DNA from: Naegleria gruberi
Lineage: Eukaryota
DNA: 64,000 bases
NCBI GenBank assembly: GCA_000004985.1
Contig: GG738864.1
Direction: 5' to 3' (one strand)
Shown here in pieces: positions 13,777 to 52,486 of this stretch (position 1 is its first letter; each line of letters starts with the position of its first letter). The position numbers and the translations under genes were made by a program. The notes under the pieces are model-generated. The model searched no databases. It was not told the DNA's origin and saw only the letters and a list, made by a program, of their open reading frames with translations.

Positions 13777-16700
13777 ATGAAAGCATGTTTTTTCGTTCTA
13801 CTCTTGCTCTGCATCTTTCTGTTCAGCCTTGCAAGTCAAATTGACTCACAAAGCCTTCAATATAATATCAGCACGGTTGCAGGTGGTGGTTCTATTGTGG
13901 GTGATGGTTTATTAGCTAATGAGGCTATAACAAGCTACCCGTGTCAATTGGCAATTAGTTCGATTAGTGGAGATTTGTTTTTTGGAGAGGTGGTATCCAA
14001 TAGGATTCGTAAAATTACATCCTCAACTGGTGTGATATCTACTATTGCTGGAACTGGAACTGGTGCATATGGTGGAGATGGCTCCATGGCTACTGCTGCT
14101 CAATTGTTTTATCCTTATGGTGTTGCTCTAAGTTTGGGTGGTGAAATTTATATAGCAGATTCGAATAATAATAGAATTCGTAAAATAGCTACAAATGGTA
14201 TTATTACAACAATAGCAGGAACTGGAACACGTGGATATGATGGAGATGGTGCTTTGGCCACAAGTGCCAAGTTGAATTTTCCTTCATCCATAGCAATTAG
14301 TGCAACCAATGAAATTTATTTCACAGACCAATTGCAATCATAGGATTCGAAAAATAGCAACTAATGGTAATATCTCAACAATTGCAGGAACTGGAACTGG
14401 CAGCTATGGTGGTGACAATGCAATTGCAACAGGTGCACAACTTTATGCACCTGCATGTATTGCAATAGATTCTAATGGTGAATTTTACATTTCCGATTCA
14501 ATGAACCATCGTATTCGAAAAATAGCTACTAATGGTATTATTACAACAATAGCAGGAACTGGAACACATGGATATGATGGAGATGGTGCTTTGGCAATTA
14601 ATGCACAATTATACAGCCCCACGGGGGTTGTTGTCAACTCAAATGGTGATGTTTATATTGCTGACTCAGGTAATAACAGAATTCGAAAAATCTCAAAAGG
14701 ATACATCTCAACAGTAGCAGGAAATGGAATAGCTGGATATAGTGGAGATGGTGGACTATCAACAAGTGCTCAATTAGCCACTCCCCAATCAGTTGCTATT
14801 AATTTAAATGGCGAGATTATAATTGCAGATTCTAATAATAATAGAATTCGTAAAATAGCAACTAATGGAAAAATTTCAACAATTGCTGGAACATCATCAT
14901 TTGGAAATAACATACCAGCTACTTCAGCATCCATCTCACCAGTTGGTGTTCCCACTCTCTACAATAATAAGATAATTTTCGCAGATGAATCTCAAATTAG
15001 ACAAGTAGACCTTGCAACTAATATCATTTCATTAATATCTGGAACTGATTATTTGGCAAGTCCTACAGCAGCTATGTATTTCAACAATGAATTATATATT
15101 CTCTATTCAAAACTCAATTTAGATAAGCCAAAGATTAATATTGTTTCAAGAGTTGTTGGTTCTGAGGGATATAATGGCGATGATATTGCAGCCACTAGTG
15201 CACTGTTGAATTATGCTCGCTCAATTGCTGTCAATTCAAATGGTGATGTTTATATTGCTGACACTTATAATAACAGAATTCGTAAGGTCTCATTTTCAAC
15301 TGGAATCATTTCAACAGTAGCAGGAACTGGAATTGCTGGACAAAATGGTGATGGTAATTTAGCTACAAGTGCACAACTAAATTTTCCTTCAGGAGTTGCT
15401 GTGAGTTCAAATGGTGATATTTATATTGCTGACACTGAAAATCATAGAATTCGTAAGATAGAAACTAATGGATACATTGCAACAGTTGCAGGATCTGGAG
15501 CATCTGGATATAGTGGAGATGGTGGGCTGCTAACTAGTGCTAAATTCCAACAACCTCAAGGAGTGGCTGTGAGTTCAAATGGTGAGATTTATATTGCTGA
15601 CACTGAAAACCATGTGGTTCGTAAAATTTCAACTTCGAATGTACTTTCTACAATTGCTGGAACTGGTTCTTATGGATACAATGGTGACGGTGGATTGGCA
15701 ATTACTGCAAAATTATTCTCTCCCATAGGAGTTGCAATAAGTTCGAGTGGTGAAGTTTTTATTGCTGATAATAACAATCACAGAATACGTAAAATTGCAA
15801 AAGATGGCTATATTTCAACAATTGTTGGCACTGGTTTGAATGGGTATGATGGAGATGGCGATTTGGCTACGAATGCTAAATTGGGTAATCCTCAAGGTGT
15901 GACTCTAAGTCCAACTGGTGAATTGTTTATTGCTGACCAAAACAATCATAGAATTCGTAAAGTAGCAAGTAATGGATATATTTCAACTGTTGCTGGTAAT
16001 GGTAACTTTGGATTTAGTGGAGATGGTGATTTGGCAACAAATGCTGAATTGAATAGTCCTTCAGGAATAGCATTCAGTTCCATTGGTACCATGTATATTG
16101 CTGATCGTTTAAATAGAGTAATTCGAAGAGTAATCTCTGGTAATATATCCACCATTGCTGGAGGTGTTGGTGATGGAGGACCAGCTACTGGAGGATACAT
16201 TCAAGCACAATCATTTGACATTTCTTCAACTGGTGAGATTTATATTGCTGACACTGAAAATCATAGAATTCGTAAAGTTTCAACATTGGGTAAAATTTCA
16301 ACTATTGCAGGAACTGGTGCAATGGGATACAGTGGTGATGGTGGATTGGCAATTACTGCAAAATTATCCTCTCCCGTAGGAGTTGCAGTTAGCTCAACTG
16401 GTGAAGTTTTTATTGCAGACCGAGACAACCATAGAATTCGTAAAGTAACACTTTCTGGTATCATTACAACCATTGCAGGAAATGGAACTAGTGGTTTTAA
16501 TAGTGATGGAATTGAAGCAAAATTTGCTCAATTGAATAGCCCTTCCTCAGTCACAATTTCAGGTGGTGAAATCTATATTGCTGACACAAACAATCATAGA
16601 ATTCGTCAAATATCCAATACTGGTATTATTAAAACAATTGCTGGAAATGGATTTGGTGGATATATTGGTGATGGTGTATTGCCACCTAATGCTCAATTGA

Positions 16701-19700
16701 ATAGTCCTTCAGGAGTTGCAATTTCTTCCACTGCTGAAATTTACATTGCAGAAAATAAGAGAATTAGAAAACTTACAGCGTTCTGTACAGAGAATGGTGT
16801 GTTGATTGATGGAAAGTGTGTATTTCAATGTTTTGGATATACGAATAGTAATTCCTCACTTGTTTGTTCTGGAAAGGGCAACTGTATTGGAAATGATAAG
16901 TGCAACTGTTCATGGCCATACTCTGGTTCCAAATGTGATGAGTTTTATTGCAATGGAGTGTTGAATACTAACAAAACATTTGTGTGTTCATCTCATGGTA
17001 CTTGCTCATCTCCAAACAATTGTTCTTGTGTCGATGGTTTTTATGGAAATATTTGTGAATTCTTTTATTGTAATGGCGTACAACAAAATAGTTTAAATGT
17101 ATGCTCAGGTCATGGACTCTGCTCTTCTTTGAATAATTGCACCTGTCAACAAGATTATTCAGGCATTGATTGTGAAAATTTCCATTGTTATGGACTGTCT
17201 AGAGTTGATCCTAAAGTTTGCTCATCTCATGGAATTTGCTCTTCCATAAATAATTGCTCATGTGCAACTGGATATGGTGGATCTAAATGCAACGAATATT
17301 CATGTTATGATGTGAATTCTACGAATAAGACAGTTTGTTCTGGAAGAGGAACTTGTTCTTCTCCCAATAATTGTACATGCGATCCAGGATACTATGGATC
17401 AAATTGTGAATTGTACGATTGTTATGGAATATCCAAAAACAATTCGAATGTCTGCTCAGGACATGGTACTTGCATTGCTATCAATAATTGTACATGTACA
17501 GATGGTTACTATGATACCAAATGTGATTCATTCAATTGTGCAGGAGAGAAATTCACTGGTCAATCACTGTGTCAGAATAATGGTACTTGTTCTAATCCTG
17601 GTAATTGTGATTGTCCTTATCAGTTTGGAGGTGCCAGATGTGAATATTACAAATGTTATACCTATACTTCTAATGAAGCAAAAGTATGTGGCGGGCATGG
17701 TACTTGTTTAAATTACAATAATTGTTCTTGCTCTGGCAAGTGGATTGGTGACGATTGTACACAGACTACTTGTTATGGTAAAAGTTCAAACTCTAGCTCA
17801 GTATGTGGTGGAAGAGGTAATTGCACAGACTTTAATCAATGCACATGTTATGATGGGTATAGAGGTGTCGAATGTCAACACATTGTCTGTTTTGATAAGA
17901 TTGAAAACGATACATCAGTTTGTTCAGGAAATGGCAAATGTCTAACATCAAACAATTGTACATGTCAAATTGGTTATGTTGGAAATGAATGTCAATATCA
18001 CGAAATTTATTTGAATACCTCATCTGCCATAATATTTTCATTCCAGGAAAGTTTAATGAAATTGTTGCCAAATGAGAGTGGAATATTTTCATGTTCTGAA
18101 ATTTTCACTGATTCTGAAATTGCCAAATTTGGAGAAAGTACTTCGATTTCTTGCCAATGGAGAAGAAATTCACTCCTAATTCATCTTGGATTTGATTATT
18201 CTATTCAACAATACTCAATTATTCAATCAAAATTCAACTTTTCAATGAGAGTTTCTAGCTTGTCCTCAGTTTCTAATAGTGATGCTCCATCTCCAACTTG
18301 TTCTTTCGGATATGTATTGAATGAAGCTTCTCCATTATTGGATGTAGTGATACGTTTGAATTGTGATGAGAATTTGCATGGTTTTAAAAAGAGTAGAACC
18401 AGTTGGATGTGTAGTCAATGTACAGGAGCAATTTCATCAATTTTAAGTAACTATTCGAATAGATCCAGTGTTTATATTCCAATTTCGTATATGAACGCTT
18501 TGAATCCTGTTCAAGGATACAAGACAATTAATTTGCAAGCTTCTTATTCATCATCTGTTTCTTCCACCATTTCCACTAGTAAGGAAGTAAAGGTTCAAAC
18601 CTATACGAAATCTTTACCTCCAAGTTATTACTGGCTAAGTGATAATTATGATGGAAAAACCTATTCATGTGTTGGCCATAATTGTATCATTGAAACTTCA
18701 TTGAATAGTTTAAACTCCTCAATTTCTTATTCATTCTCTGGTTTATTTAGTTTATTGAACACTGATTTATATTCGAAACAAATGGTGAGATTGATAAATG
18801 AATTTTCAGGAGGAATTGTCGACAGTGAATTCAGTTCTAACATGCAAGTTTTTGGAGTTCAACTCAAGACCTATGTTTACTTACCGTATAGTATTGATTC
18901 ATTCAAATATTCCACATTTACAAATTTGGATTATGTCATGACAGGCGTCAATAGAACCTACTCAATCAATGCAGATAACTTAATAACTATAGGTTTGACT
19001 ATTGATGATCCATACATTTCAAAATACACATTAAGTGATTACATGGTATTCTCCTGGAAATGTTTCCAAGTTTCTCCTTCTAATAGGTCTTTAATTTTGA
19101 CCGATAATTTGTGTTCCTCAATAACTGACAATGCCAAATCAAATATTGAATTGGATATCAGCAAAATGTCTTTGAAAGAAGGTTCATATTTAATATCTGC
19201 TTCAATTTCATCGACTAAATACTTTGTTACAACAGTTTACAATTATGAAGGATGGATTGACTTGTTGGGAATTTCACAGGATTCTCCTCAGATAACTACA
19301 GATTATGTACCTGCTATTACTCCTTCTCATCACAATATTTATTTAAGAAATGTGGTGAAATCTTCAACAAGTGTTTCATTCTATTGGAAACTCAAAAGTG
19401 GTGAATTGAATATTGACGAAACTGTTGAAGATTTCCTTCAAAGAAATACAGTTTCTAAATCTATCTTGGGTAACAATGTTGAAATTATCTTGAATATTGA
19501 CAATGATTATCTCATCCAAGGAGAATATTATGAATTTGAATTGTCAACCAAGAATTCTAACGGTGTTTCAAATATTTCCATTTCAACAAGAATGGATTTC
19601 ACTCCTCGATTGTCATGTAATGTGGAAAATGTGAAGAATGAAGCTAACTTGACCAGTTTTGAATCTTTAATATCTATTACATGTGTAAAATTGCCATACG

Positions 19701-22134
19701 AAAGTATATCAAGTTTCGTCATGGAATTCCATTCACAAAACGAAAGATTAGGAGTCATTTCGAATACTCCAAAGAAGGCTCTTATTACCAGAGTTCCTTA
19801 TGCAATGGATGGAACAGTTACCTTAATCGTGAAACTTCAAAATTTATATGGATCTATTGGAATTTATAGAACTACTATCAGCGCTCAATTACCAAATGCT
19901 TTGACAAGTGACAACTCTATTTCTTCAAGATTTACATATGTATCCAAACAATTCCAAATTCTCAAAAATGCTCAACCAGCCAAAATTGAAGTTTCCAACG
20001 AAGTCAACACCTTACTTTCTTTATTAATCCAAAACGAAACTCTTTCTAAAATTTCAGAGAAAATTTCAAAGGAATTGAAATCTGATCAATTAGTTTCCTT
20101 TAATACAATGCTCAAAGAAATGCTAACCCTCACCAAGAGTCTACAAGACATTACTTACAAAGTTGATGAAAGATTAATTCAATTAATTCTGCCAATTGTC
20201 AACAAAATTTCCACAATTCTCAAATTAACTCTTGACACATCGTCATTATCCAATTTTGCTTCAGAATTGGAAATTTGGTTGGACTGGATTTATTCAGGAA
20301 TGAATAAGGCACTCAATTACTATCCAACTTTCATTTACAAGGAATTATTAGATGAATTTCATTTACAAGAAATTGTTTCGTTACAAAATATACTTTCGAA
20401 TATATACCAAAATAATTTGGATCAACAATTTAAATACCACAAGTACAATTTACAATATATCAAGCTTACAGGAAGTAATAGTGATAATTCAAGCTTTGTG
20501 GAAGATGTTGAGTTTTCTGATTTATTGAATGACAAGTCAATTTCACTTTCTGTTTCTAATTTTAAAGTTGATATGAAATTACCAAGTGATTTTACCAATC
20601 AAATTTCATTGAAATCAAAATCAAAACTATACTATTCCATTACCTCATTCAGTGATAATCAAACTGGTTCAAAACTTTTACAAAACAAACCAATAATTGA
20701 CCTATCTCTGTACGATACATCTTACAATGCAATATCAGTTGACAACATTAATCCACCAATAGTTTTCAAGTTCCAAGGATTGTTTTCCACTAACAAGACT
20801 AATATTAACACAACTTGTGTCTATTACAATACCATACTAGGAAAATGGTCAACCAATGGATTGCAAACAATTACAAGCGTTACCAAACGAACTGAAGAGT
20901 ACATGTACTTTGATATGGAATGTCATTCAAGTCACTTGTCTGTATTCTCAGTTCAAGAGGTTGATTACAACACCCCAATTATACCAGCCATTTCATCTAA
21001 CAAAGCTTCAAACCAACAAGAAAATCTCACCATTATTTTAGCTACTGTTTTACCTGTTAGCTTTTTAATCCTTATTTTCATTATTATCCTCTTTGTGTTT
21101 ATCATTTTACTATTCAGATTTAAGCAAAAGAAAGCAAATGAATTTGCCATTGCAACCAAAACCAATCTTGAAATGGAAGGTTTCTCAAGCAGTGATTTCC
21201 CATCCTCAGAAGGAAGCATGTTTATTCATCCTCTTATGAGTATTTCCTCAAATGGAACAACTAGTGAAGCATTCAATCCATTGTCAAGATATTCTGATTT
21301 AGTAAGAATTGGCCAAGGAGCTTTTGGAAGTGTTTTTAAAGCATTTGATAGTAAGACGTCAACTGTTAAGGCGATTAAGGTAATTAAATATTCATCCATG
21401 GAGGAGTTGAATAATTTCATGAAAGAAGGAACGCAGTTGATGAATGTGACACATCCTTATATTTTGAGAGTGAATGATTTCTTTGTGAGTAAGGATCAAT
21501 TGCTATGTATAGATATGGATTTTTATGAATTAGGAGATTTGGTCAAATTGACCAATGTTGAATTTGATTGCTCGGAGAAGTTAATCAAACAAATTATTTA
21601 TCAAATGTGTCAAGCTTTGGATTATATTCACTGCAATATGAAAATCATTCACAGAGATATCAAACCATCTAATGTTTTTGTAAAGAGTATGGAAAATGAC
21701 GATATTCACATTATTGTTGCCGATTTCGGATTGGCTAAATCAAATATTGGTGGATCAATGAATAATTCCTATGCAGGTACACCTATATTTATGGTAAGTT
21801 TTCAAATATTTCTTTCGATTCGAATAATTTTTAGTCTCCTGAACTTGGCTTGGGTGGAAAATATTATTACAATACTGATATTTACAGTTTAGGTGTTACT
21901 GTATATCAAATAATGACCAAAGACACCTCTACTTCAATCAGTCAATTGTATCTTGGAAAGGAACAAAATGAAGTTACAACGCTATTGAGAAAAAAGCTTA
22001 AAGATGGTGGACATTATTCTGAACGAGTTGTGGAATTGGTTTTACAAATGTTAACAAAGGATAATTTAACTAGGCCACAAGCTCAAGATATTTTGGAAAA
22101 TTCCTATTTTGATGATTTGAGAATGAAACGATAA
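13777..22134 (+). CDS. Giant receptor Ser/Thr kinase with NHL beta-propeller repeats, EGF-like repeats, a TM segment and a kinase domain (single-base frame disruption near 14332; one 41-nt intron)
   Basis: The signal peptide is MKACFFVLLLLCIFLFSLA. About 28 NHL-type repeats (...YIADSxNNRIRKIxxNG.ISTIAGTG...) run through ORFs 13777..14343 and 14300..21892, which differ by one base. About 15 EGF-like modules (C..G.C...N.C.C..GY.G..C) follow, then about 1000 aa of unknown ectodomain, a TM helix (IILATVLPVSFLILIFIIILFVFIILLF) and a kinase (GQGAFGSV, AIK, HRDIKPSN, DFG, GTPIFM). A GTAAGT...TTTTAG intron at 21794..21834 leads to exon 21835..22134 (SPELGLGGKYYYNTDIYSLGV). The stop is TAA. Confidence 0.7.
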
Positions 22135-48055: not shown

Positions 48056-48173
48056 GGCTACGGCCATATCACGATGAATGCACCTCATCCCGTCCGATTT
48101 GAGAAGTTAAGCATCGTCGAGCCACATCAGTACTGAGGTTGGAGACAACTTGGGAACCTGTGGTGCTGTAGTC
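48056..48173 (+). rRNA. 5S ribosomal RNA
   Basis: GGCTACGGCCATATCACGATGAATGCACCTCATCCCGTCCGATTTGAGAAGTTAAGCATCGTCGAGCCACATCAGTACTGAGGTTGGAGACAACTTGGGAACCTGTGGTGCTGTAGTC matches the eukaryotic 5S consensus, and its terminal helix pairs GGCTAC with GTAGTC. A T6 run follows. The 5' boundary is accurate to about 3 nt. Confidence 0.85.
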
Positions 48174-48179
48174 TTTTTT
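48174..48179 (+). terminator. RNA polymerase III T-run terminator of the 5S gene
   Basis: TTTTTT lies immediately after the 5S 3' end. Confidence 0.6.
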
Positions 48180-48321: not shown

Positions 48322-49278
48322 TTACACCATCAAACAGCCTTTCTTTTTTTTATGTAGAGATAATACCTCTTCCAGCACTTTTTTTGGATCATCAATACGT
48401 ACTCGAAACTTTCTAACACATTCTTCCACTAATTTATCAATATTTTCATTTGTTTTTGCACTTGTTTTCAAAATTGTACAATTAGTCAATTCAAATTCTT
48501 TTACAACTTCTTGTACCATTTCCAAATTAATTTCATACCTATCAGGGAGATCACATTTGTTCATGGCAATCATACAGGGAGCATTCTTTCCCTTCCTATC
48601 TACAAATTTACTTATCAATATTTTCAATTCTTCCAAACTTTTCTGGTCTATCATTGAGCAAACAAGAATCAAAACATCGAACATGCAATTTTTCCAATAA
48701 TAATCAGTTTCTTCCTCACTACACGTATCCAAAAAGTTTACAGTTTCCTCTTCATCATCCACAGAGATTGTTCGTTTGTACGAATCATAACCGGTAGGGT
48801 CATATTCTAGGAAGAATTGCCCATATATAAATCTTGTTATGATTGAGGATTTTCCACTGCCTCCCCTTCCAATCACTAACAGCTCAATAATTGGTGTATC
48901 AAATTTTTTTCTAAATATTTTCCCTTGTTTTTCTCTTGTTCGAATCAAATGAATAAAGTAACCTAAACTTTTAACAACTCCAATCTTGGCGAATTTATCA
49001 AAAACATGCAAAGATTCCATTTCTTTTGATTCTACTGATATCGAATACTGATCAAATATCACACCAACAAAAATCCAACAAAATTCATCAATGTATTTTG
49101 CAATAAATTTCGAATAATTTGGATGAATCAATCGGAAACTTAATACATTCGGAATGGAGTTTTTTAATTGATGGAAATATTGTTCATGCAATTTTCTTTC
49201 AGCTAACTCATAAAACGGAGACAAGTATGAAATAATTTCTGTATGAATCTCTTGGGGAAGTTGAAGAAATTTGGACAT
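48322..49278 (-). CDS. F-box-like N-terminus fused to a Ras-family GTPase with a polybasic-CAAX tail
   Basis: ATG at 49278. The N-terminus has LQLPQEIHTEIISYLSP (F-box-like). The GTPase core has G1 GRGGSGKSS, G4 MNKCD and G5 TSAK. The C-terminus HKKKKGCLMV is a polybasic stretch plus CAAX before TAA. The gene is intronless. Confidence 0.65.
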   Translation of the reverse strand: MSKFLQLPQEIHTEIISYLSPFYELAERKLHEQYFHQLKNSIPNVLSFRLIHPNYSKFIAKYIDEFCWIFVGVIFDQYSISVESKEMESLHVFDKFAKIGVVKSLGYFIHLIRTREKQGKIFRKKFDTPIIELLVIGRGGSGKSSIITRFIYGQFFLEYDPTGYDSYKRTISVDDEEETVNFLDTCSEEETDYYWKNCMFDVLILVCSMIDQKSLEELKILISKFVDRKGKNAPCMIAMNKCDLPDRYEINLEMVQEVVKEFELTNCTILKTSAKTNENIDKLVEECVRKFRVRIDDPKKVLEEVLSLHKKKKGCLMV

Positions 49279-49393: not shown

Positions 49394-49466
49394 GCCGACA
49401 TAGCTCAGTTGGGAGAGCGTAAGACTGAAGATCTTAAGGTCCCTGGTTCGATCCCTGGTGTCGGCA
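49394..49466 (+). tRNA. tRNA-Phe (anticodon GAA)
   Basis: The sequence is GCCGACATAGCTCAGTTGGGAGAGCGTAAGACTGAAGATCTTAAGGTCCCTGGTTCGATCCCTGGTGTCGGCA. It has a 7-bp acceptor stem (GCCGACA/TGTCGGC), a D-loop AGCTCAGTTGGGAGAGC, an anticodon loop ACTGAAGAT, a T-arm GGTTCGATCC and discriminator A. There is no intron, and it is followed by a T5 run. Confidence 0.9.
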
Positions 49467-49864: not shown

Positions 49865-50881
49865 TCAAATAACACCAATATCAAGTGATGTTAATTGTTT
49901 CATTTCACTTATGAATTTGGATCCTTCTACACCAATTTGATTGTAAGTAATGTCAAGTGATGTTAATTGTTTCATTTCACTTATGAATTTGGCTCCTTCT
50001 ACACCAATTTGATTGCCAGTAATATTAAGTGTTAATTGTTTCATTTCACTTATAAATTTGGATCCTTCTACACCAATTTGATTGTAACCAATATTAAGTG
50101 ATGTTAATTGTTTCATTTCACTTATATATTTGGATCCCTCTACACCAATCCCATTATAATATATATCAAGTGATGTTAATTGTTTCATTTCACTTATGTA
50201 TTTGGCTCCTTCTACACCAATTTGATTGTAACCAATATTAAGTGATGTTAATTGTTTCATTTCACTTATATATTTGGTTCCCTCTACACCAATTCCATTA
50301 TAATATATATTAAGTGATGTTAACTGTTTCATTTCACTTATGTATTTGGATCCTTCTACACCAATTTGATTGTAAGTAATGTCAAGTGATGTTAATTGTT
50401 TCATTTCACTTATGTATTTGGCTCCTTCTACACCAATTTGATTATCAGAAATATAAAGTGATGTTAATTGTTTCATTTCACTTATGAATTTAACTTTATC
50501 TGGAGAGTTACGCAACCTATAACAAAACTTAACATTTACAATACTATTCTTGAATTGGCTTTTCATAAACAATTCAATTCTATTTTCTGTAAATTGTTTT
50601 TTAAATTGAATAACAAGTCTTGAACGTTCCCGGATCACATTAAAGAATTGTTTTGAAATTAAAGAACAATTATTCAAAATAAACCACGAATCATCAATCA
50701 TGGAAATTATGTCAAAACAAACATCATCTGAAAATATATCTTGTTGGAGTTTCACAACTTTTTTTGCTTTCTCTTTCATCGAATAATTATCATTAATCAA
50801 TAGCTCCTCCGAAATTAATTGATTTGCAAAATCTTGGCTGATTCGTTTGCTCATTTTTTTATTACTAATAGTTTTCTTCAT
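49865..50881 (-). CDS. F-box-like / LRR (RI-type) protein with about 11 near-identical 24-aa repeats
   Basis: ATG at 50881. The N-terminus (FDIISMIDDSWFILNNCSLISKQFFNVI) is F-box-like. It is followed by tandem LTSL(N/D)I.YNQIGVEGAKYISEMKQ repeats. The stop is TGA at 49865. Confidence 0.7.
   Translation of the reverse strand: MKKTISNKKMSKRISQDFANQLISEELLINDNYSMKEKAKKVVKLQQDIFSDDVCFDIISMIDDSWFILNNCSLISKQFFNVIRERSRLVIQFKKQFTENRIELFMKSQFKNSIVNVKFCYRLRNSPDKVKFISEMKQLTSLYISDNQIGVEGAKYISEMKQLTSLDITYNQIGVEGSKYISEMKQLTSLNIYYNGIGVEGTKYISEMKQLTSLNIGYNQIGVEGAKYISEMKQLTSLDIYYNGIGVEGSKYISEMKQLTSLNIGYNQIGVEGSKFISEMKQLTLNITGNQIGVEGAKFISEMKQLTSLDITYNQIGVEGSKFISEMKQLTSLDIGVI
49871..50495. repeat. Tandem array of about 8.5 copies of a 72-bp unit (one 69-bp copy) inside the LRR gene
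   Basis: The unit tcaagtgatgttaattgtttcatttcacttatgaatttggatccttctacaccaatttgattgtaagtaatg recurs with more than 90 percent identity, and the differences cluster at a few positions. It encodes the 24-aa LRR repeat. Confidence 0.8.
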
Positions 50882-51715
50882 ATATCAATTATGCCAGCCA
50901 TTTCATTGAACTAATGTCTATTCGATTGGTCAATCAAGAAGAACAACCAACACAAACGAATGTAAGAGAAAAGCTAATGCAGTTACTCAACCAAGAAAAA
51001 GAAGGAATGCTCATTTCCCTATGGCATCGTTCTGCAAATTGACGATGGCGTATTTACTCTTTGAGCTCAAGTTCACTTTAAAATATAAATACTTGTACAG
51101 TAAGTTAATATTGACAAGTTGCTAGATAACCAATCTGAACCTTCGAATAAACCATTGCCATTTATTTCACTACATGGTTGGATGTATCAATCTTGTTTGA
51201 TCGAATTTAAGTGCAATATCTTTGCAAGGTCTGTAACTTTGGCGGCCCTTGGTAAATCTTGCTTATTAGCCCAAATTAAAAATTTGGCATTTGATGGATC
51301 TTCCATAACTTTACAGGATGAGGTGCATTCATCGTGATATGACTGTAGCCCTCACTTAATCGAATTCTTAATATAAAAACAATAATATATCAAATCCTAA
51401 GAAAATAAACTTAATTAAATTATGAAAATTACAATGTATTAATTATTTGGTCTTTTATCAAATATTGGAACTTTTCAATTTGTGGTCAGTCTAACCTTGA
51501 AGTTCGTTCATTCTGTTCCTTTTTCTTTATTATTCCAAAGAGATGGTTAATGAAAGACCAAATGAATAATATCCAAAACCCATGGCTACTCCTTCTTTGG
51601 AAACTCGTTAATCATATTTCTTTCCAAAATTATTAATTGACTGAGCAAGTACAAGTTTTGAAATCTATAAATTGTGGAAAGTAAAAAATTAAAAACAGAA
51701 TACAAAGAAAACAAA

Positions 51716-52114
51716 ATGAAAAGATTTATTTCAATTCTATTAATTGCATTGACGTTAACAGTTCTTGCTCTTTCATTCACATCAGGAGTTAGTGCCACCA
51801 CTGAAGAACAAGCATCAACTCTCTCCTTGTATATTAGAAAGTATGGAAATAAGAAGAGAAATCTCAAGAAATACAGATTAAAGAAGAGAAAGAACAACAG
51901 AAAGCTCAACAAGTACATTGATACCTATGGAAGAAAGAGAAGAGGATCAAAGAGATTAGGAAAGAGGAGAATTATCAGAAAGAAGGTTGATGTTTATGGA
52001 AAGAAGAGAAGATTGAATAAGAAGAGAAGAATTGATACCTATAGAAAGAAGAATAGAAAGAATAAAAGAGGAGGAAAGAGAAATAAGAAGGTTGATATCT
52101 ATAAGCGTAAATAG
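51716..52114 (+). CDS. Secreted, extremely basic (about 50 percent K/R) repeat protein
   Basis: The track start at 51674 is a GTG, and the first ATG at 51716 follows an A-rich leader. The signal peptide is MKRFISILLIALTLTVLALSFTSGVSA. The mature part is about 105 aa of K/R-rich sequence with 4-5 repeats of (I/V)D(T/V/I)YG(R/K)KRR, ending KRK before TAA. Confidence 0.55.
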   Translation: MKRFISILLIALTLTVLALSFTSGVSATTEEQASTLSLYIRKYGNKKRNLKKYRLKKRKNNRKLNKYIDTYGRKRRGSKRLGKRRIIRKKVDVYGKKRRLNKKRRIDTYRKKNRKNKRGGKRNKKVDIYKRK

Positions 52115-52486
52115 AATTTCCTTAAATTTTGTAATTATGAGTAATAAACGTGTGATTCCATTCAATCTTGTTTAACATGAGGCCTTAGAGTCTGAAAACT
52201 TGAATAAATGTTTGGAAGTTTGAATCATGTATAAAAATTCCTTTGGAATGTTTGCACTCCTCAAGCATGGAATAACAAAGAATGTATGTCCATGCACTCT
52301 TAGTCACTCCCGACGGTCTGTCTTAGGGCGTACAAATTTTTCCTCACTAACTGCGTACTATCTCTCTATTTTTATTTAAAAGGCCATTAATCGAAAACCT
52401 CAAATGAAACCAATAACAAAAAAAACTAATCAATTGATTAACTGTTAATAATAGTCATCTATTTAGCTCAAAATATTGAAAAAATC

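What the first reader, a model, noticed from the sequence alone, without database searches (positions are those of the whole stretch)
51716..52114. Small secreted polycationic repeat protein
A clean signal peptide is followed by about 105 residues that are roughly half Lys/Arg. They are organised in DxYG(K/R)KRR repeats with no acidic counter-charge. The protein resembles secreted antimicrobial, nucleic-acid-condensing or cell-penetrating polypeptides. It lies divergently from the LRR gene across an 830-bp intergenic region.
Basis: seen in the sequence. Interest (0 to 1): 0.5.

Follow-up and report, generated by a model that had tools for sequence, protein, structure and literature searches.

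The report
Secreted polycationic orphan protein of Naegleria
This is a real but apparently unannotated small gene of the amoeba Naegleria gruberi, one of at least six copies of a Naegleria-only family whose product is a signal peptide followed by an unstructured chain that is almost half lysine and arginine; it probably acts by sticking to negatively charged targets such as bacteria, but its function has not been tested.

Summary
Window 51716-52114 (+) encodes 132 aa. A 27-aa signal-peptide-like N-terminus is followed by 105 aa with 47% K+R, net charge about +42, pI 11.7, and no Cys, Pro or Trp. Four [IV]-D-x-Y motifs hold every Asp of the basic part (0 of 200,000 shuffles reach this).

The window is eukaryotic, from Naegleria gruberi NEG-M, so the upstream GTG start is irrelevant. 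The exact protein is not in the public collection. Five other N. gruberi paralogues lie on other scaffolds, two of them mis-modelled, and three environmental contigs carry relatives. Exhaustive profile searches found nothing outside this set, and there is no Pfam or PDB match.

The gene is under purifying selection (dN/dS 0.17 against a paralogue). Its start context, a TATA-like box, its stop position and the -3/-1 cleavage residues are conserved. It strongly prefers AAG over AAA for Lys. AlphaFold2 is confident only for the signal peptide.

Best reading (confidence about 0.4): a secreted or phagosomal disordered polycation that binds polyanions, protamine-like, for handling or killing bacterial prey.

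Rivals: a precursor cleaved at multibasic sites (like fungal Kex2-processed repeat proteins or the TRH prohormone), or a Lys/Tyr-rich wall or adhesive protein. No expression data were found. Interest is moderate.

The parts
51716..52114 (+). Complete intron-less coding sequence (132 codons + TAG) of a polycationic secreted-type protein; sixth member of a Naegleria gruberi family
   Evidence: Paralogues are 66-83% identical by BLASTP (70-88% in the alignment). dN/dS is 0.17 against the L002 paralogue. The exact product is absent from the public collection.
51716..51796 (+). Signal peptide, residues 1-27 (MKRFISILLIALTLTVLALSFTSGVSA); predicted cleavage after VSA
   Evidence: Hydropathy and the -3/-1 rule. 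MKRxxSILLIALTL is invariant in the 7 aligned members that have this N-terminus (P0004's mis-modelled N-terminus is excluded). The -3 residue is V and the -1 residue is A, G or C in all of them. It is the only part with confident AF2 pLDDT, 81-83. dN is lower here than in the mature part.
51797..51838 (+). Short acidic/neutral N-terminal segment of the mature chain, residues 28-41 (TTEEQASTLSLYIR)
   Evidence: EE and STLS are conserved in all members that have the N-terminus, including the 45%-identical environmental homologue. Inferred role: it keeps the flank after the hydrophobic core acidic, so the chain inserts N-in/C-out despite the polycation; it may also be a pro-piece.
51839..52111 (+). 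Polycationic, low-complexity, probably disordered region, residues 42-132 (about half K/R; no C, P, W)
   Evidence: Composition. AF2 pLDDT is 44-68 and pTM 0.19. The K+R fraction is 0.43-0.51 in every family member. AAG:AAA is 25:4 against a 40% AAG background.
51917..51928 (+). Motif copy 1, I68-D-T-Y71 (context KYIDTYGRKRR)
   Evidence: Conserved in all N. gruberi paralogues and lost in L001/L003.
51986..51997 (+). Motif copy 2, V91-D-V-Y94 (context RKKVDVYGKKRR)
   Evidence: Conserved in N. gruberi paralogues and absent in L001/L003.
52031..52042 (+). Motif copy 3, I106-D-T-Y109, inside the most conserved block of the family (NKKRRIDTYxKK)
   Evidence: The invariant columns K103 R104 R105 D107 T108 Y109 K111 K112 hold across all members, including the environmental ones.
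52091..52102 (+). Motif copy 4, V126-D-I-Y129, followed by KRK and the stop; conserved C-terminus KK[VF]D[ILF]YK[RK]K-stop
51664..51673 (+). TCTATAAATT, a TATA-like box 50 nt upstream of the ATG
   Evidence: TCT(A/T)TAAATT is conserved at about -50 to -60 in the window, L001, L002 and L003, while the surrounding sequence diverges. Promoter function is inferred.
51617..51629 (+). Second conserved upstream box, TTTCTTTCCAAAA, about 100 nt upstream of the ATG
   Evidence: TTTCTT(T/A)C(C/T)AA is invariant or nearly so in the four upstream regions. Function unknown.
52143..52148 (+). AATAAA, a candidate polyadenylation signal 29 nt after the stop codon
   Evidence: Read from the sequence. L001, L002 and L003 also have AATAAA shortly after their stops. 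Inferred, not shown.

Best explanation
Window 51716-52114 (+) is a real, intron-less protein-coding gene of Naegleria gruberi NEG-M. It appears to be missing from the public gene set. It belongs to a dispersed family of at least six paralogues, known so far only from N. gruberi and close environmental relatives.

The product enters the secretory pathway through a cleavable 27-aa signal peptide. The conserved Glu-Glu just after the cleavage site keeps that flank acidic, so the chain inserts N-in/C-out despite what follows. The mature 105-aa chain (+42, pI 11.7, no Cys/Pro/Trp) is an intrinsically disordered polycation punctuated by four hydrophobic-Asp-x-Tyr motifs.

Most likely it works largely intact. 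Released into the medium or into phagosomes, it binds polyanionic surfaces purely by charge density: bacterial envelopes (LPS, teichoic acids, acidic lipids) or nucleic acids. That would agglutinate, permeabilise or kill prey or competitors, as protamine, polylysine and Lys-rich non-amphipathic antimicrobial polypeptides do.

Shown here: the gene is real, the family exists, and the signal-peptide anatomy, charge, motif non-randomness and lack of a confident fold are as described. Inferred: secretion, an intact active form, the target, and the role of the D-x-Y motifs (perhaps recognition or trimming sites, or Tyr 'stickers').
For: Organism and gene reality:
- The neighbouring ORFs are exact matches to N. 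gruberi XP_002677914 and XP_002678008.
- dN/dS against the paralogous locus L002 is 0.17 (signal peptide 0.07, mature part 0.23, dS 0.38).
- Start, stop position and frame are kept in a homologue that is only 45% identical.
- A TATA-like box, the ACAAAATGAAAAGA start context and a downstream AATAAA are conserved.
- Lys codons are AAG 25: AAA 4, against 40% AAG in 27 other ORFs of the window (p = 8e-7). L002 shows 26:2. This fits selection on translation or avoidance of poly(A) tracks.

Secretion signal:
- n/h/c anatomy with V at -3 and A/G/C at -1, then EE, in every member that has this N-terminus.
- It is the only AF2-confident segment.
- The signal peptide evolves more slowly than the mature part (window vs L001: dN 0.27 vs 0.48). 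That is the pattern of defence-peptide precursors (own knowledge).

Charge as the conserved property:
- K+R is 0.43-0.51 in all members.
- The environmental homologues L001/L003 have lost two of the four D-x-Y motifs and swapped many R for K, yet keep the polycationic character over the whole length.

It is a lineage-restricted, dispersed multigene family, as is usual for defence or offence genes. Naegleria is a bacterivore already known to make antimicrobial peptides from processed precursors (naegleriapores, cited in PMC5850478).
Against: - There is no experimental or expression evidence of any kind.
- The chain is not amphipathic. The best 18-residue helical hydrophobic moment is 0.54, with mean hydrophobicity about -0.8. 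It is far more charged than typical antimicrobial peptides.
- There is no sizeable anionic pro-piece to neutralise +42 during transit.
- The exact conservation of the K-R-R-I-D-T-Y block, including which residues are K and which are R, points to specific recognition such as by a protease. Pure charge-based action does not explain that.
- The 18-residue hydrophobic core is long for a signal peptide, so an uncleaved signal anchor is not excluded. SignalP could not be run.
- The family was not found in the annotated proteomes of other Naegleria species, although small genes are often unannotated.
Confidence: 0.4

Rival explanations
1. Polyprotein precursor. The chain is cut in the late secretory pathway at its many KR/RR/KK sites and trimmed by a carboxypeptidase. 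This would release short [IVF]-D-x-Y peptides as signals. Copies followed by Gly + basic residues (IDTY-G-RKRR, VDVY-G-KKRR) could be C-terminally amidated. The architecture is that of fungal Kex2-processed repeat proteins, yeast alpha-factor or prepro-TRH (KR-QHPG-KR repeats).
For: - It meets the three screening criteria used to define KEPs (PMC6339444): a signal peptide, internal repeats, and KR/RR/KK between the repeats.
- The short motif is the only non-basic element conserved and is highly non-random (0 of 200,000 shuffles).
- KKRR|IDTY is invariant, including the K/R identities.
- Gly follows Tyr in copies 1 and 2 in all N. gruberi paralogues, and in copy 3 in four members.
- The last copy is followed only by K-R/K-K and the stop, as in many prohormones (own knowledge).
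- Multi-peptide precursors exist in Naegleria (naegleriapores).
Against: - The spacers are almost entirely basic and far longer than cleavage sites need.
- The residues before the motif are inconsistent (NKY, RKK, KRR, NKK), whereas true precursors have uniform boundaries.
- The number of motif copies varies from 2 to 5, while the polycationic character is constant.
- Half of the copies lack the Gly.
- The presence of a kexin-like convertase and of an amidating enzyme in N. gruberi was not tested. As I read it, one survey (PMC2770060) reports the convertase P domain only in its Excavata, Heterokonta and Opisthokonta samples, not in the group that held N. gruberi.
Confidence: 0.2
2. Structural or adhesive polycation. 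A secreted Lys/Arg/Tyr/Gly/Asn-rich disordered protein bridges anionic surfaces: cell coat to substrate, cyst-wall polysaccharide, or polyphosphate. It might also form complex coacervates or Tyr cross-links. Analogues are mussel-foot and sandcastle-worm cement proteins, plant extensins, or the basic tail of Giardia CWP2.
For: - The five commonest residues of the mature part are K, R, N, Y and G, and Tyr is 7.6% and regularly spaced.
- Tyr 'stickers' in a polycationic 'spacer' is the layout of coacervating adhesives (own knowledge).
- The chain is disordered.
- It is a multigene, lineage-specific family.
- Polylysine-type polycations glue anionic cells to anionic surfaces (own knowledge).
Against: - Tyr and Gly contents are far below those of known adhesive proteins.
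- There is no Ser/Pro/Hyp-type repeat and no Cys.
- There is no evidence of stage-specific (cyst) expression.
- The environmental homologues have only 4 Tyr in the mature part.
Confidence: 0.15
3. Not secreted. Either the N-terminal hydrophobic segment is an uncleaved signal anchor that tethers the polybasic chain to a membrane, or the protein acts inside the cell as a nucleolar or RNA-binding basic protein.
For: - The hydrophobic core is 18 residues, at the long end for signal peptides.
- K/R-rich chains are typical nuclear or nucleolar proteins (own knowledge).
- SignalP or DeepTMHMM could not be run.
Against: - Small residues at -3/-1 are conserved across the family, and a polar c-region with Gly follows the core.
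- The flank charges (+2 to +3 before the core, -2 in the 15 residues after it) favour N-in/C-out, which puts the polycation in the lumen or outside whether or not the peptide is cleaved.
- A cytosolic or nuclear protein would not keep such an N-terminus under purifying selection (signal-peptide dN/dS 0.07).
Confidence: 0.1
4. Non-functional ORF. A purine-rich low-complexity stretch happens to stay open, or the window copy is a decaying pseudogene of the family.
For: - The product is absent from the public gene set.
- AAG/AGA-rich sequence contains few stop codons by composition.
- No expression data were found.
Against: - The frame is intact, with the conserved start, stop and length of the family.
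- dN/dS is 0.17 with dS 0.38 against a paralogue.
- Upstream boxes are conserved.
- Lys codon bias is strong.
- The motif pattern is non-random.
Confidence: 0.04

Closest known systems
Protamine, polylysine and Lys-rich non-amphipathic antimicrobial polypeptides (e.g. salmon protamine, abalone hdMolluscidin)
   Same: Extreme K/R content, no fold, no disulfides. Action is expected through charge density on polyanionic envelopes or nucleic acids (own knowledge). hdMolluscidin is cited as a conserved cationic AMP in bioRxiv 10.64898/2026.08.23.746575.
   Different: There is no sequence relationship. Protamines are nuclear and have no signal peptide. This protein is about three times longer, mixes K and R, and carries conserved D-x-Y motifs and a conserved N-terminal segment.
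Kex2-processed repeat proteins (KEPs) of fungi, yeast alpha-factor precursor, prepro-TRH
   Same: Signal peptide + short repeated core + KR/RR/KK on both sides of the cores. Gly-dibasic follows some cores, as in amidated hormones (criteria in PMC6339444; TRH layout from own knowledge).
   Different: The cores are only 4-5 residues with inconsistent N-terminal boundaries. The spacers are themselves polybasic and make up most of the chain. Copy number varies from 2 to 5. Processing and the processing enzymes are untested in Naegleria. There is no homology.
Defence-peptide precursors with a conserved signal/pro-region and a variable cationic mature part (amphibian preprodermaseptins, Hydra arminin, honeybee apidaecin polyprotein, Naegleria naegleriapore precursors)
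   Same: The signal peptide is conserved better than the mature part. There is a short acidic stretch before the cationic part. It is a multigene family in a microbe-exposed organism. Naegleria processes multi-peptide antimicrobial precursors.
   Different: The acidic pro-piece is only two Glu. The mature part is not amphipathic and is not saposin-like. No activity is known.
Polycationic Lys/Tyr-rich secreted adhesives and wall proteins (mussel foot proteins, sandcastle-worm Pc proteins, plant extensins, basic tail of Giardia CWP2)
   Same: Signal peptide, basic pI, disorder, K/R + Y + G + N-rich composition, and short repeats (own knowledge; composition).
   Different: Much lower Tyr and Gly, and no Pro/Hyp or Ser. 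Charge density is higher than in any of these. There is no evidence of wall or substrate localisation.
Arginine/lysine-rich cell-penetrating peptides (HIV-1 Tat basic domain YGRKKRRQRRR; PR-39, poly-GR)
   Same: The local string TYGRKRRGSKR resembles the Tat transduction domain. Highly cationic peptides are endocytosed and reach nucleoli, including in N. gruberi itself (bioRxiv 10.64898/2026.08.23.746575).
   Different: The resemblance is compositional, not homologous. Here the producer is the amoeba, and no target cell is known.

Membership tests
Any curated protein family (Pfam-A) or solved structure | Significant profile or sequence match | tested here: not met
   Pfam gave 0 families for the window protein and for P0001, P0004 and P0005. 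PDB phmmer gave 0 hits at E <= 1. The exhaustive profile search of 1.84 billion representatives returned only family members.
Naegleria polycationic family (XP_002673524, XP_002673814, XP_002676724, XP_002676161, N-terminus of XP_002675247) | Full-length homology: MKRxxSILLIALTL signal peptide, EE/STLS segment, KY, NKKRRIDTY block, KK[VF]D[ILF]YK[RK]K-stop | tested here: met
   E-values are 2e-58 to 4e-27, identities 66-83% by BLASTP and 70-88% in the alignment, over the full length. All the listed blocks are present in the window protein.
Kex2-processed repeat proteins (KEPs) | Signal peptide | tested here: met
   n/h/c anatomy and the -3/-1 rule, conserved in the family. SignalP itself was not available.
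Kex2-processed repeat proteins (KEPs) | Internal repeats of nearly identical peptide cores | tested here: inconclusive
   There are four [IV]D.Y cores, which is non-random. But they are only 4-5 residues long, the surrounding units differ in length (23, 15 and 20 residues), and no DNA or long peptide repeat exists.
Kex2-processed repeat proteins (KEPs) | KR/RR/KK cleavage sites between the repeats | tested here: met
   There are 18 runs of two or more basic residues, including on both sides of cores 2-4. The criterion is met trivially, because half of the chain is K/R.
Kex2-processed repeat proteins (KEPs) | Actual cleavage by a kexin-type convertase present in the organism | not testable with these tools
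   The N. gruberi genome could not be searched here. The literature hint is ambiguous (PMC2770060).
Amidated prohormone (prepro-TRH type) | Every core followed by Gly + dibasic site | tested here: not met
   Gly follows Tyr in 2 of the 4 cores in the window protein. Copy 3 has R and copy 4 has K, and copy 4 never has Gly in any member.
Amidated prohormone (prepro-TRH type) | Peptidylglycine alpha-amidating monooxygenase in the organism | not tested
   Literature searches gave nothing usable.
Linear amphipathic cationic antimicrobial peptides | Net positive charge | tested here: met
   +42 on 105 residues.
Linear amphipathic cationic antimicrobial peptides | Substantial hydrophobic fraction arranged as an amphipathic helix or sheet | tested here: not met
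   Mean Eisenberg hydrophobicity of the best 18-residue windows is -0.8 to -1.2 and the maximum helical moment is 0.54. Only about 15% of the mature residues are I/L/V/A.
Protamines / histone H1-like nuclear basic proteins | Nuclear protein without a secretory signal; sequence homology | tested here: not met
   A conserved N-terminal signal peptide is present. There is no Pfam match to protamine, linker-histone or any other family.

The most novel reading that the evidence does not exclude
The family is a protist prohormone. Naegleria would cut the chain at its multibasic sites and release tetra- or pentapeptides of the form [IVF]-D-x-Y, some C-terminally amidated through the Gly-dibasic signal. 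These would act as secreted cell-cell signals, for example for density sensing, encystment or amoeba-to-flagellate switching. That would be a TRH-like repeated-peptide precursor in a heterolobosean, far outside animals and fungi.
Probability: 0.1. Interest if true: 0.8.

Novelty: new variant of a known kind. Interest (0 to 1): 0.4.

Why it matters
If the protein is secreted as predicted, Naegleria makes an endogenous 'polylysine-like' polypeptide with a charge density (+42 on 105 residues) well beyond ordinary host-defence peptides. It is encoded by a family with no relatives outside the genus.

That would give a new, easily synthesised class of protist effector to test against bacteria, biofilms or other protists. 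It would also give a handle on how a bacterivorous amoeba captures or kills prey.

If instead it is a processed precursor, it would be evidence for repeated-peptide signalling in an early-branching eukaryote.

On the practical side, the locus shows that the NEG-M gene set misses or mis-models small low-complexity genes. In this family one copy is absent, one is fused to a NOT2/3/5 gene, and one has a wrong 5' end.

Tried and rejected
- **Exact-sequence look-ups of the encoding contigs.** Look-ups for the window protein, its GTG-extended form, the NmrA-like neighbour and P0001-P0004 and P0012 all found nothing. That index evidently does not hold the N. gruberi assembly, so no genomic context could be obtained for the annotated paralogues.
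- **JGI metagenome scan with the family alignment.** 600 pattern matches, none confirmed.
- **Second k-mer homology search with a 7-sequence alignment.** No new members.
- **tblastn of three family members against the window.** No second copy in these 64 kb.
- **Expression and literature.** No paper mentions the paralogues' locus tags or accessions. One N. gruberi RNA-seq preprint has no held supplements. The copper-proteomics supplements do not list the paralogues. A protein this rich in K/R would in any case yield almost no usable tryptic peptides.
- **Amidating enzyme or convertase in Naegleria.** Literature searches gave nothing decisive.
- **AlphaFold2 with the shallow family alignment.** No confident fold (mean pLDDT 59, pTM 0.19), so no fold search was run because its matches would be meaningless.
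- **Apparent positive selection between L001 and L003.** There are 14 non-synonymous changes against 1 synonymous. I rejected it as evidence because most changes sit in one about 20-nt complex substitution cluster.
- **The GTG start at 51674.** Rejected: the genome is eukaryotic, the upstream sequence is not conserved as coding, and the ATG context is conserved.
- **The antisense ORF 51586-51918.** This is the pyrimidine-rich mirror of the coding strand, and nothing supports it as a gene.
Full report
**1. What is in the sequence**

Window 51716-52114 (+) is an open frame of 132 codons ending in TAG. Its product is:

MKRFISILLIALTLTVLALSFTSGVSA | TTEEQASTLSLYIR | KYGNKKRNLKKYRLKKRKNNRKLNKYIDTYGRKRRGSKRLGKRRIIRKKVDVYGKKRRLNKKRRIDTYRKKNRKNKRGGKRNKKVDIYKRK

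- The first 27 residues have the anatomy of a cleavable signal peptide. There is a basic n-region (MKR), an 18-residue hydrophobic core, and a polar c-region with Gly, with V at -3 and A at -1.
- The remaining 105 residues contain 28 K and 21 R (47%) but only 4 D and 2 E. They have no Cys, Pro or Trp. The calculated net charge is +42, pI 11.7 and mass 13.1 kDa.
- All four Asp of the basic part lie in a hydrophobic-D-x-Y motif: YIDTYGRKRR, VDVYGKKRR, IDTYRKKNR and VDIYKRK-stop. None of 200,000 shuffles of the mature sequence gave four such motifs.
- Tandem Repeats Finder sees no DNA repeat beneath them. The periodicity is therefore maintained at the protein level and is not a recent microsatellite expansion.
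- The LRR gene (49865-50881, minus strand) is divergent, 834 bp away.

**2. Where the window comes from**

- The window has 33.5% G+C. It carries eukaryotic genes: an INTS6 homologue, a Ras-family GTPase, an RI-type LRR protein and an NmrA-like reductase.
- Two neighbouring ORF products are exact matches to Naegleria gruberi NEG-M proteins XP_002677914 and XP_002678008, on a 441,990-bp scaffold.
- The tool's bacterial-code GTG start at 51674 is therefore irrelevant. The first in-frame ATG is 51716.
- Neither the 132-aa protein nor its GTG-extended form exists in the 15-billion-sequence collection, which does hold the N. gruberi proteome. The best N. gruberi hit is 83% identical by BLASTP (88% in the alignment). 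I infer that this copy is not in the public gene set.

**3. It is a member of a small Naegleria-restricted family**

- Homology searches returned four annotated 'predicted proteins' of N. gruberi on four other scaffolds: XP_002673524, XP_002673814, XP_002676724 and XP_002676161.
- An exhaustive HMMER profile search of 1.84 billion cluster representatives added XP_002675247. This is a 565-aa model. Its first ~130 residues are a family member and residues 436-557 are a NOT2/3/5 C-terminal domain. It is almost certainly a chimeric gene model.
- XP_002676161 lacks the signal peptide and begins with a TQ-repeat, so its 5' end is probably mis-modelled.
- Three environmental ENA contigs also carry members.
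  - L002 is 2.3 kb and close to XP_002673524.
  - L001 and L003 are about 0.6 kb, nearly identical to each other and about 45% identical to the window protein.
  - The ENA gene calls on L001 and L003 read through the real TAG stop. The true products end ...VD[FL]YKKK-stop, like the rest of the family.
- Nothing else was found in the profile search, in two k-mer searches, in a JGI metagenome scan, in Pfam or in the PDB.
- There is no second copy in the window.

**4. The gene is real**

- A codon alignment of the window gene with L002 gives dS 0.38 and dN/dS 0.17. The signal peptide scores 0.07 and the mature part 0.23. That is clear purifying selection on this frame.
- Start, stop position and frame are kept in the distant L001/L003 homologues.
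- The four available upstream regions diverge except for three elements: a TTTCTT(T/A)C(C/T)AA box near -100, TCT(A/T)TAAATT near -50, and the ACAAAATGAAAAGA start context. AATAAA follows each stop within about 30-70 nt.
- Lys is encoded by AAG 25 times and by AAA 4 times, against 40% AAG in 27 other large ORFs of the window (binomial p = 8e-7). L002 shows 26:2. This fits selection against poly(A) tracks or for efficient translation in a Lys-dense message. That interpretation is an inference from established knowledge of poly(A)-track stalling.
- I could find no direct expression data.
- L001 and L003 come from two different samples, end at the same base 15 nt after AATAAA, and one begins with an adapter remnant. 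They may be transcript-derived, but I could not check the sample type.

**5. What is conserved**

- Across the 7 aligned members that have the native N-terminus, these elements are invariant or nearly so:
  - MKRxxSILLIALTL;
  - V at -3 and A/G/C at -1 of the predicted cleavage site;
  - the following Glu-Glu;
  - STLS;
  - K-Y before copy 1;
  - the block N-K-K-R-R-I-D-T-Y-x-K-K.
- The C-terminus KK[VF]D[ILF]YK[RK]K-stop is shared by all members except the chimeric XP_002675247 model.
- The signal peptide evolves more slowly than the mature part (window vs L001: dN 0.27 vs 0.48).
- The K+R fraction is 0.43-0.51 in every member. This holds even though L001/L003 have lost motif copies 1 and 2, are longer, and use K where N. 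gruberi uses R. XP_002675247 has five copies.
- So charge density is the most robustly conserved property of the mature chain. The KRR-IDTY block and the C-terminal VDxY come next.
- AlphaFold2 with the family alignment is confident only for the signal peptide (pLDDT 81-83). The rest scores 44-68 and pTM is 0.19. This is consistent with intrinsic disorder, so no fold search was attempted.

**6. How it most likely works**

- The flank charges (+2 to +3 before the hydrophobic core, -2 in the 15 residues after it) and the conserved small -3/-1 residues predict N-in/C-out insertion and cleavage. That places the polycation in the lumen or outside the cell. This is an inference from the positive-inside and -3/-1 rules.
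- The conserved EE then has a simple rationale. It shields the translocon-proximal flank from the polycation.
- For the mature chain I favour action as an intact, disordered polycation that binds polyanionic targets by charge (confidence about 0.4). In a bacterivorous amoeba the most likely targets are bacterial envelopes in the medium or in phagosomes, leading to agglutination, permeabilisation or killing.
- Four observations support this:
  - charge is conserved over motif;
  - the pattern of a conserved signal peptide with a faster-evolving mature part is typical of defence-peptide precursors;
  - the family is lineage-specific and dispersed;
  - Naegleria is known to make antimicrobial peptides from processed precursors (naegleriapores, cited in PMC5850478).
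- Three observations count against it:
  - the chain is not amphipathic;
  - there is no sizeable anionic pro-piece;
  - the exact conservation of K-R-R-I-D-T-Y, including which residues are K and which are R, suggests specific recognition rather than bulk charge.

**7. Rivals**

(a) *Processed precursor* (about 0.2).
- The protein formally meets the three criteria used to define fungal Kex2-processed repeat proteins (PMC6339444): a signal peptide, internal repeats, and KR/RR/KK between the repeats.
- Copies 1 and 2 have the Gly-dibasic signature of amidated hormones. KKRR|IDTY is an ideal convertase site. The layout recalls prepro-TRH (own knowledge).
- Against this: the spacers are themselves polybasic and make up most of the chain. 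The N-terminal boundaries of the cores are inconsistent (NKY, RKK, KRR, NKK). Copy number varies from 2 to 5. Half of the copies lack Gly.
- Whether N. gruberi has a kexin-type convertase or PAM could not be tested. One survey seems not to find the convertase P domain in its N. gruberi-containing group (PMC2770060).

(b) *Adhesive or wall polycation* (about 0.15).
- K, R, N, Y and G are the five commonest residues, and the Tyr are regularly spaced. This recalls coacervating cements, extensins and the basic tail of Giardia CWP2 (own knowledge).
- However, the Tyr and Gly contents are far lower than in those proteins, and nothing links the family to cysts or substrate.

(c) *Uncleaved signal anchor or intracellular basic protein* (about 0.1). 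The conserved cleavage-site residues and the flank charges disfavour this.

(d) *Non-functional ORF* (about 0.04). The evidence in section 4 contradicts this.

**8. Comparison with known things and novelty**

- The protein belongs to no curated family.
- In kind, it is a secreted cationic polypeptide, which is a well-known category. It is an extreme and unusual variant of it: about three times the length and several times the charge of typical host-defence peptides, non-amphipathic, Cys-free, and punctuated by a conserved D-x-Y motif.
- The local string TYGRKRRGSKR resembles the HIV-1 Tat transduction domain. That is compositional resemblance only.
- I rate it 'new variant of a known kind', with moderate interest (0.4). 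It is a clean, conserved, previously uncharacterised and partly mis-annotated orphan family with testable alternative mechanisms. There is no functional evidence yet, and nothing forces a surprising conclusion.
- The most novel reading not excluded is a TRH-like repeated-peptide prohormone in a heterolobosean (probability about 0.1).

Noticed in passing
window 48056-48174 (+) and 49394-49466 (+): A 5S rRNA gene (Rfam 105 bits) and a tRNA-Phe(GAA) gene flank the Ras-family GTPase gene (48322-49278, minus strand), about 2-3.5 kb upstream of the finding.
   Followed up: no
window 49865-50881 (-): The divergent neighbour encodes near-identical 24-aa RI-type leucine-rich repeats (ISEMKQLTSLxIxxNxIGVEGxKY; Pfam LRR_6 1e-36). 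This exact ORF product is not in the public collection, so the public gene model must differ.
   Followed up: partly
P0012 = XP_002675247 (N. gruberi, another scaffold): This is a 565-aa public model. Residues 1 to about 130 are a polycationic family member with a signal peptide, and residues 436-557 are a NOT2/NOT3/NOT5 C-terminal domain (4e-35). It is almost certainly two neighbouring genes fused by the gene predictor.
   Followed up: partly
P0004 = XP_002676161 (N. gruberi, another scaffold): This family member is annotated without the signal peptide. Its N-terminus is MVMGFRHTQTQTQTHTQ..., so the 5' end is probably mis-modelled.
   Followed up: no
L001 110-529 and L003 127-549: The ENA gene calls on these environmental contigs read through the TAG stop and add 24 spurious residues. 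The real products end VD[FL]YKKK-stop, like the family.
   Followed up: yes
L003 1-17; the 3' ends of L001 and L003: L003 begins with an Illumina adapter remnant (cgacgctcttccgatct). L001 and L003 come from two different samples and end at the same base, 15 nt after AATAAA, with an identical 87-nt 3' flank. They may be transcript-derived contigs. The sample type could not be checked.
   Followed up: partly
L001 about 462-480 vs L003: Nearly all amino-acid differences between the two environmental copies (14 non-synonymous against 1 synonymous) include a cluster in one ~20-nt stretch (NFHKLNRKS vs KHQHKNRKG). This looks like a single complex mutation or a conversion tract, not diffuse positive selection.
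   Followed up: partly
window 51716-52114 (+): Lys codon usage is AAG 25: AAA 4, against 40% AAG in 27 other large ORFs of the window (p = 8e-7). 20 of the 22 Arg codons are AGA. This fits avoidance of poly(A) tracks in a Lys-dense message, or high-expression bias.
   Followed up: yes
window 51586-51918 (-): A 110-aa antisense ORF rich in F and L overlaps the 5' half of the gene. It is the pyrimidine-rich mirror of the purine-rich coding strand, and nothing supports it as a gene.
   Followed up: no
window 14300-21892 (+): A very long open frame (2,530 codons as listed) lies elsewhere in the window. It was not examined.
   Followed up: no
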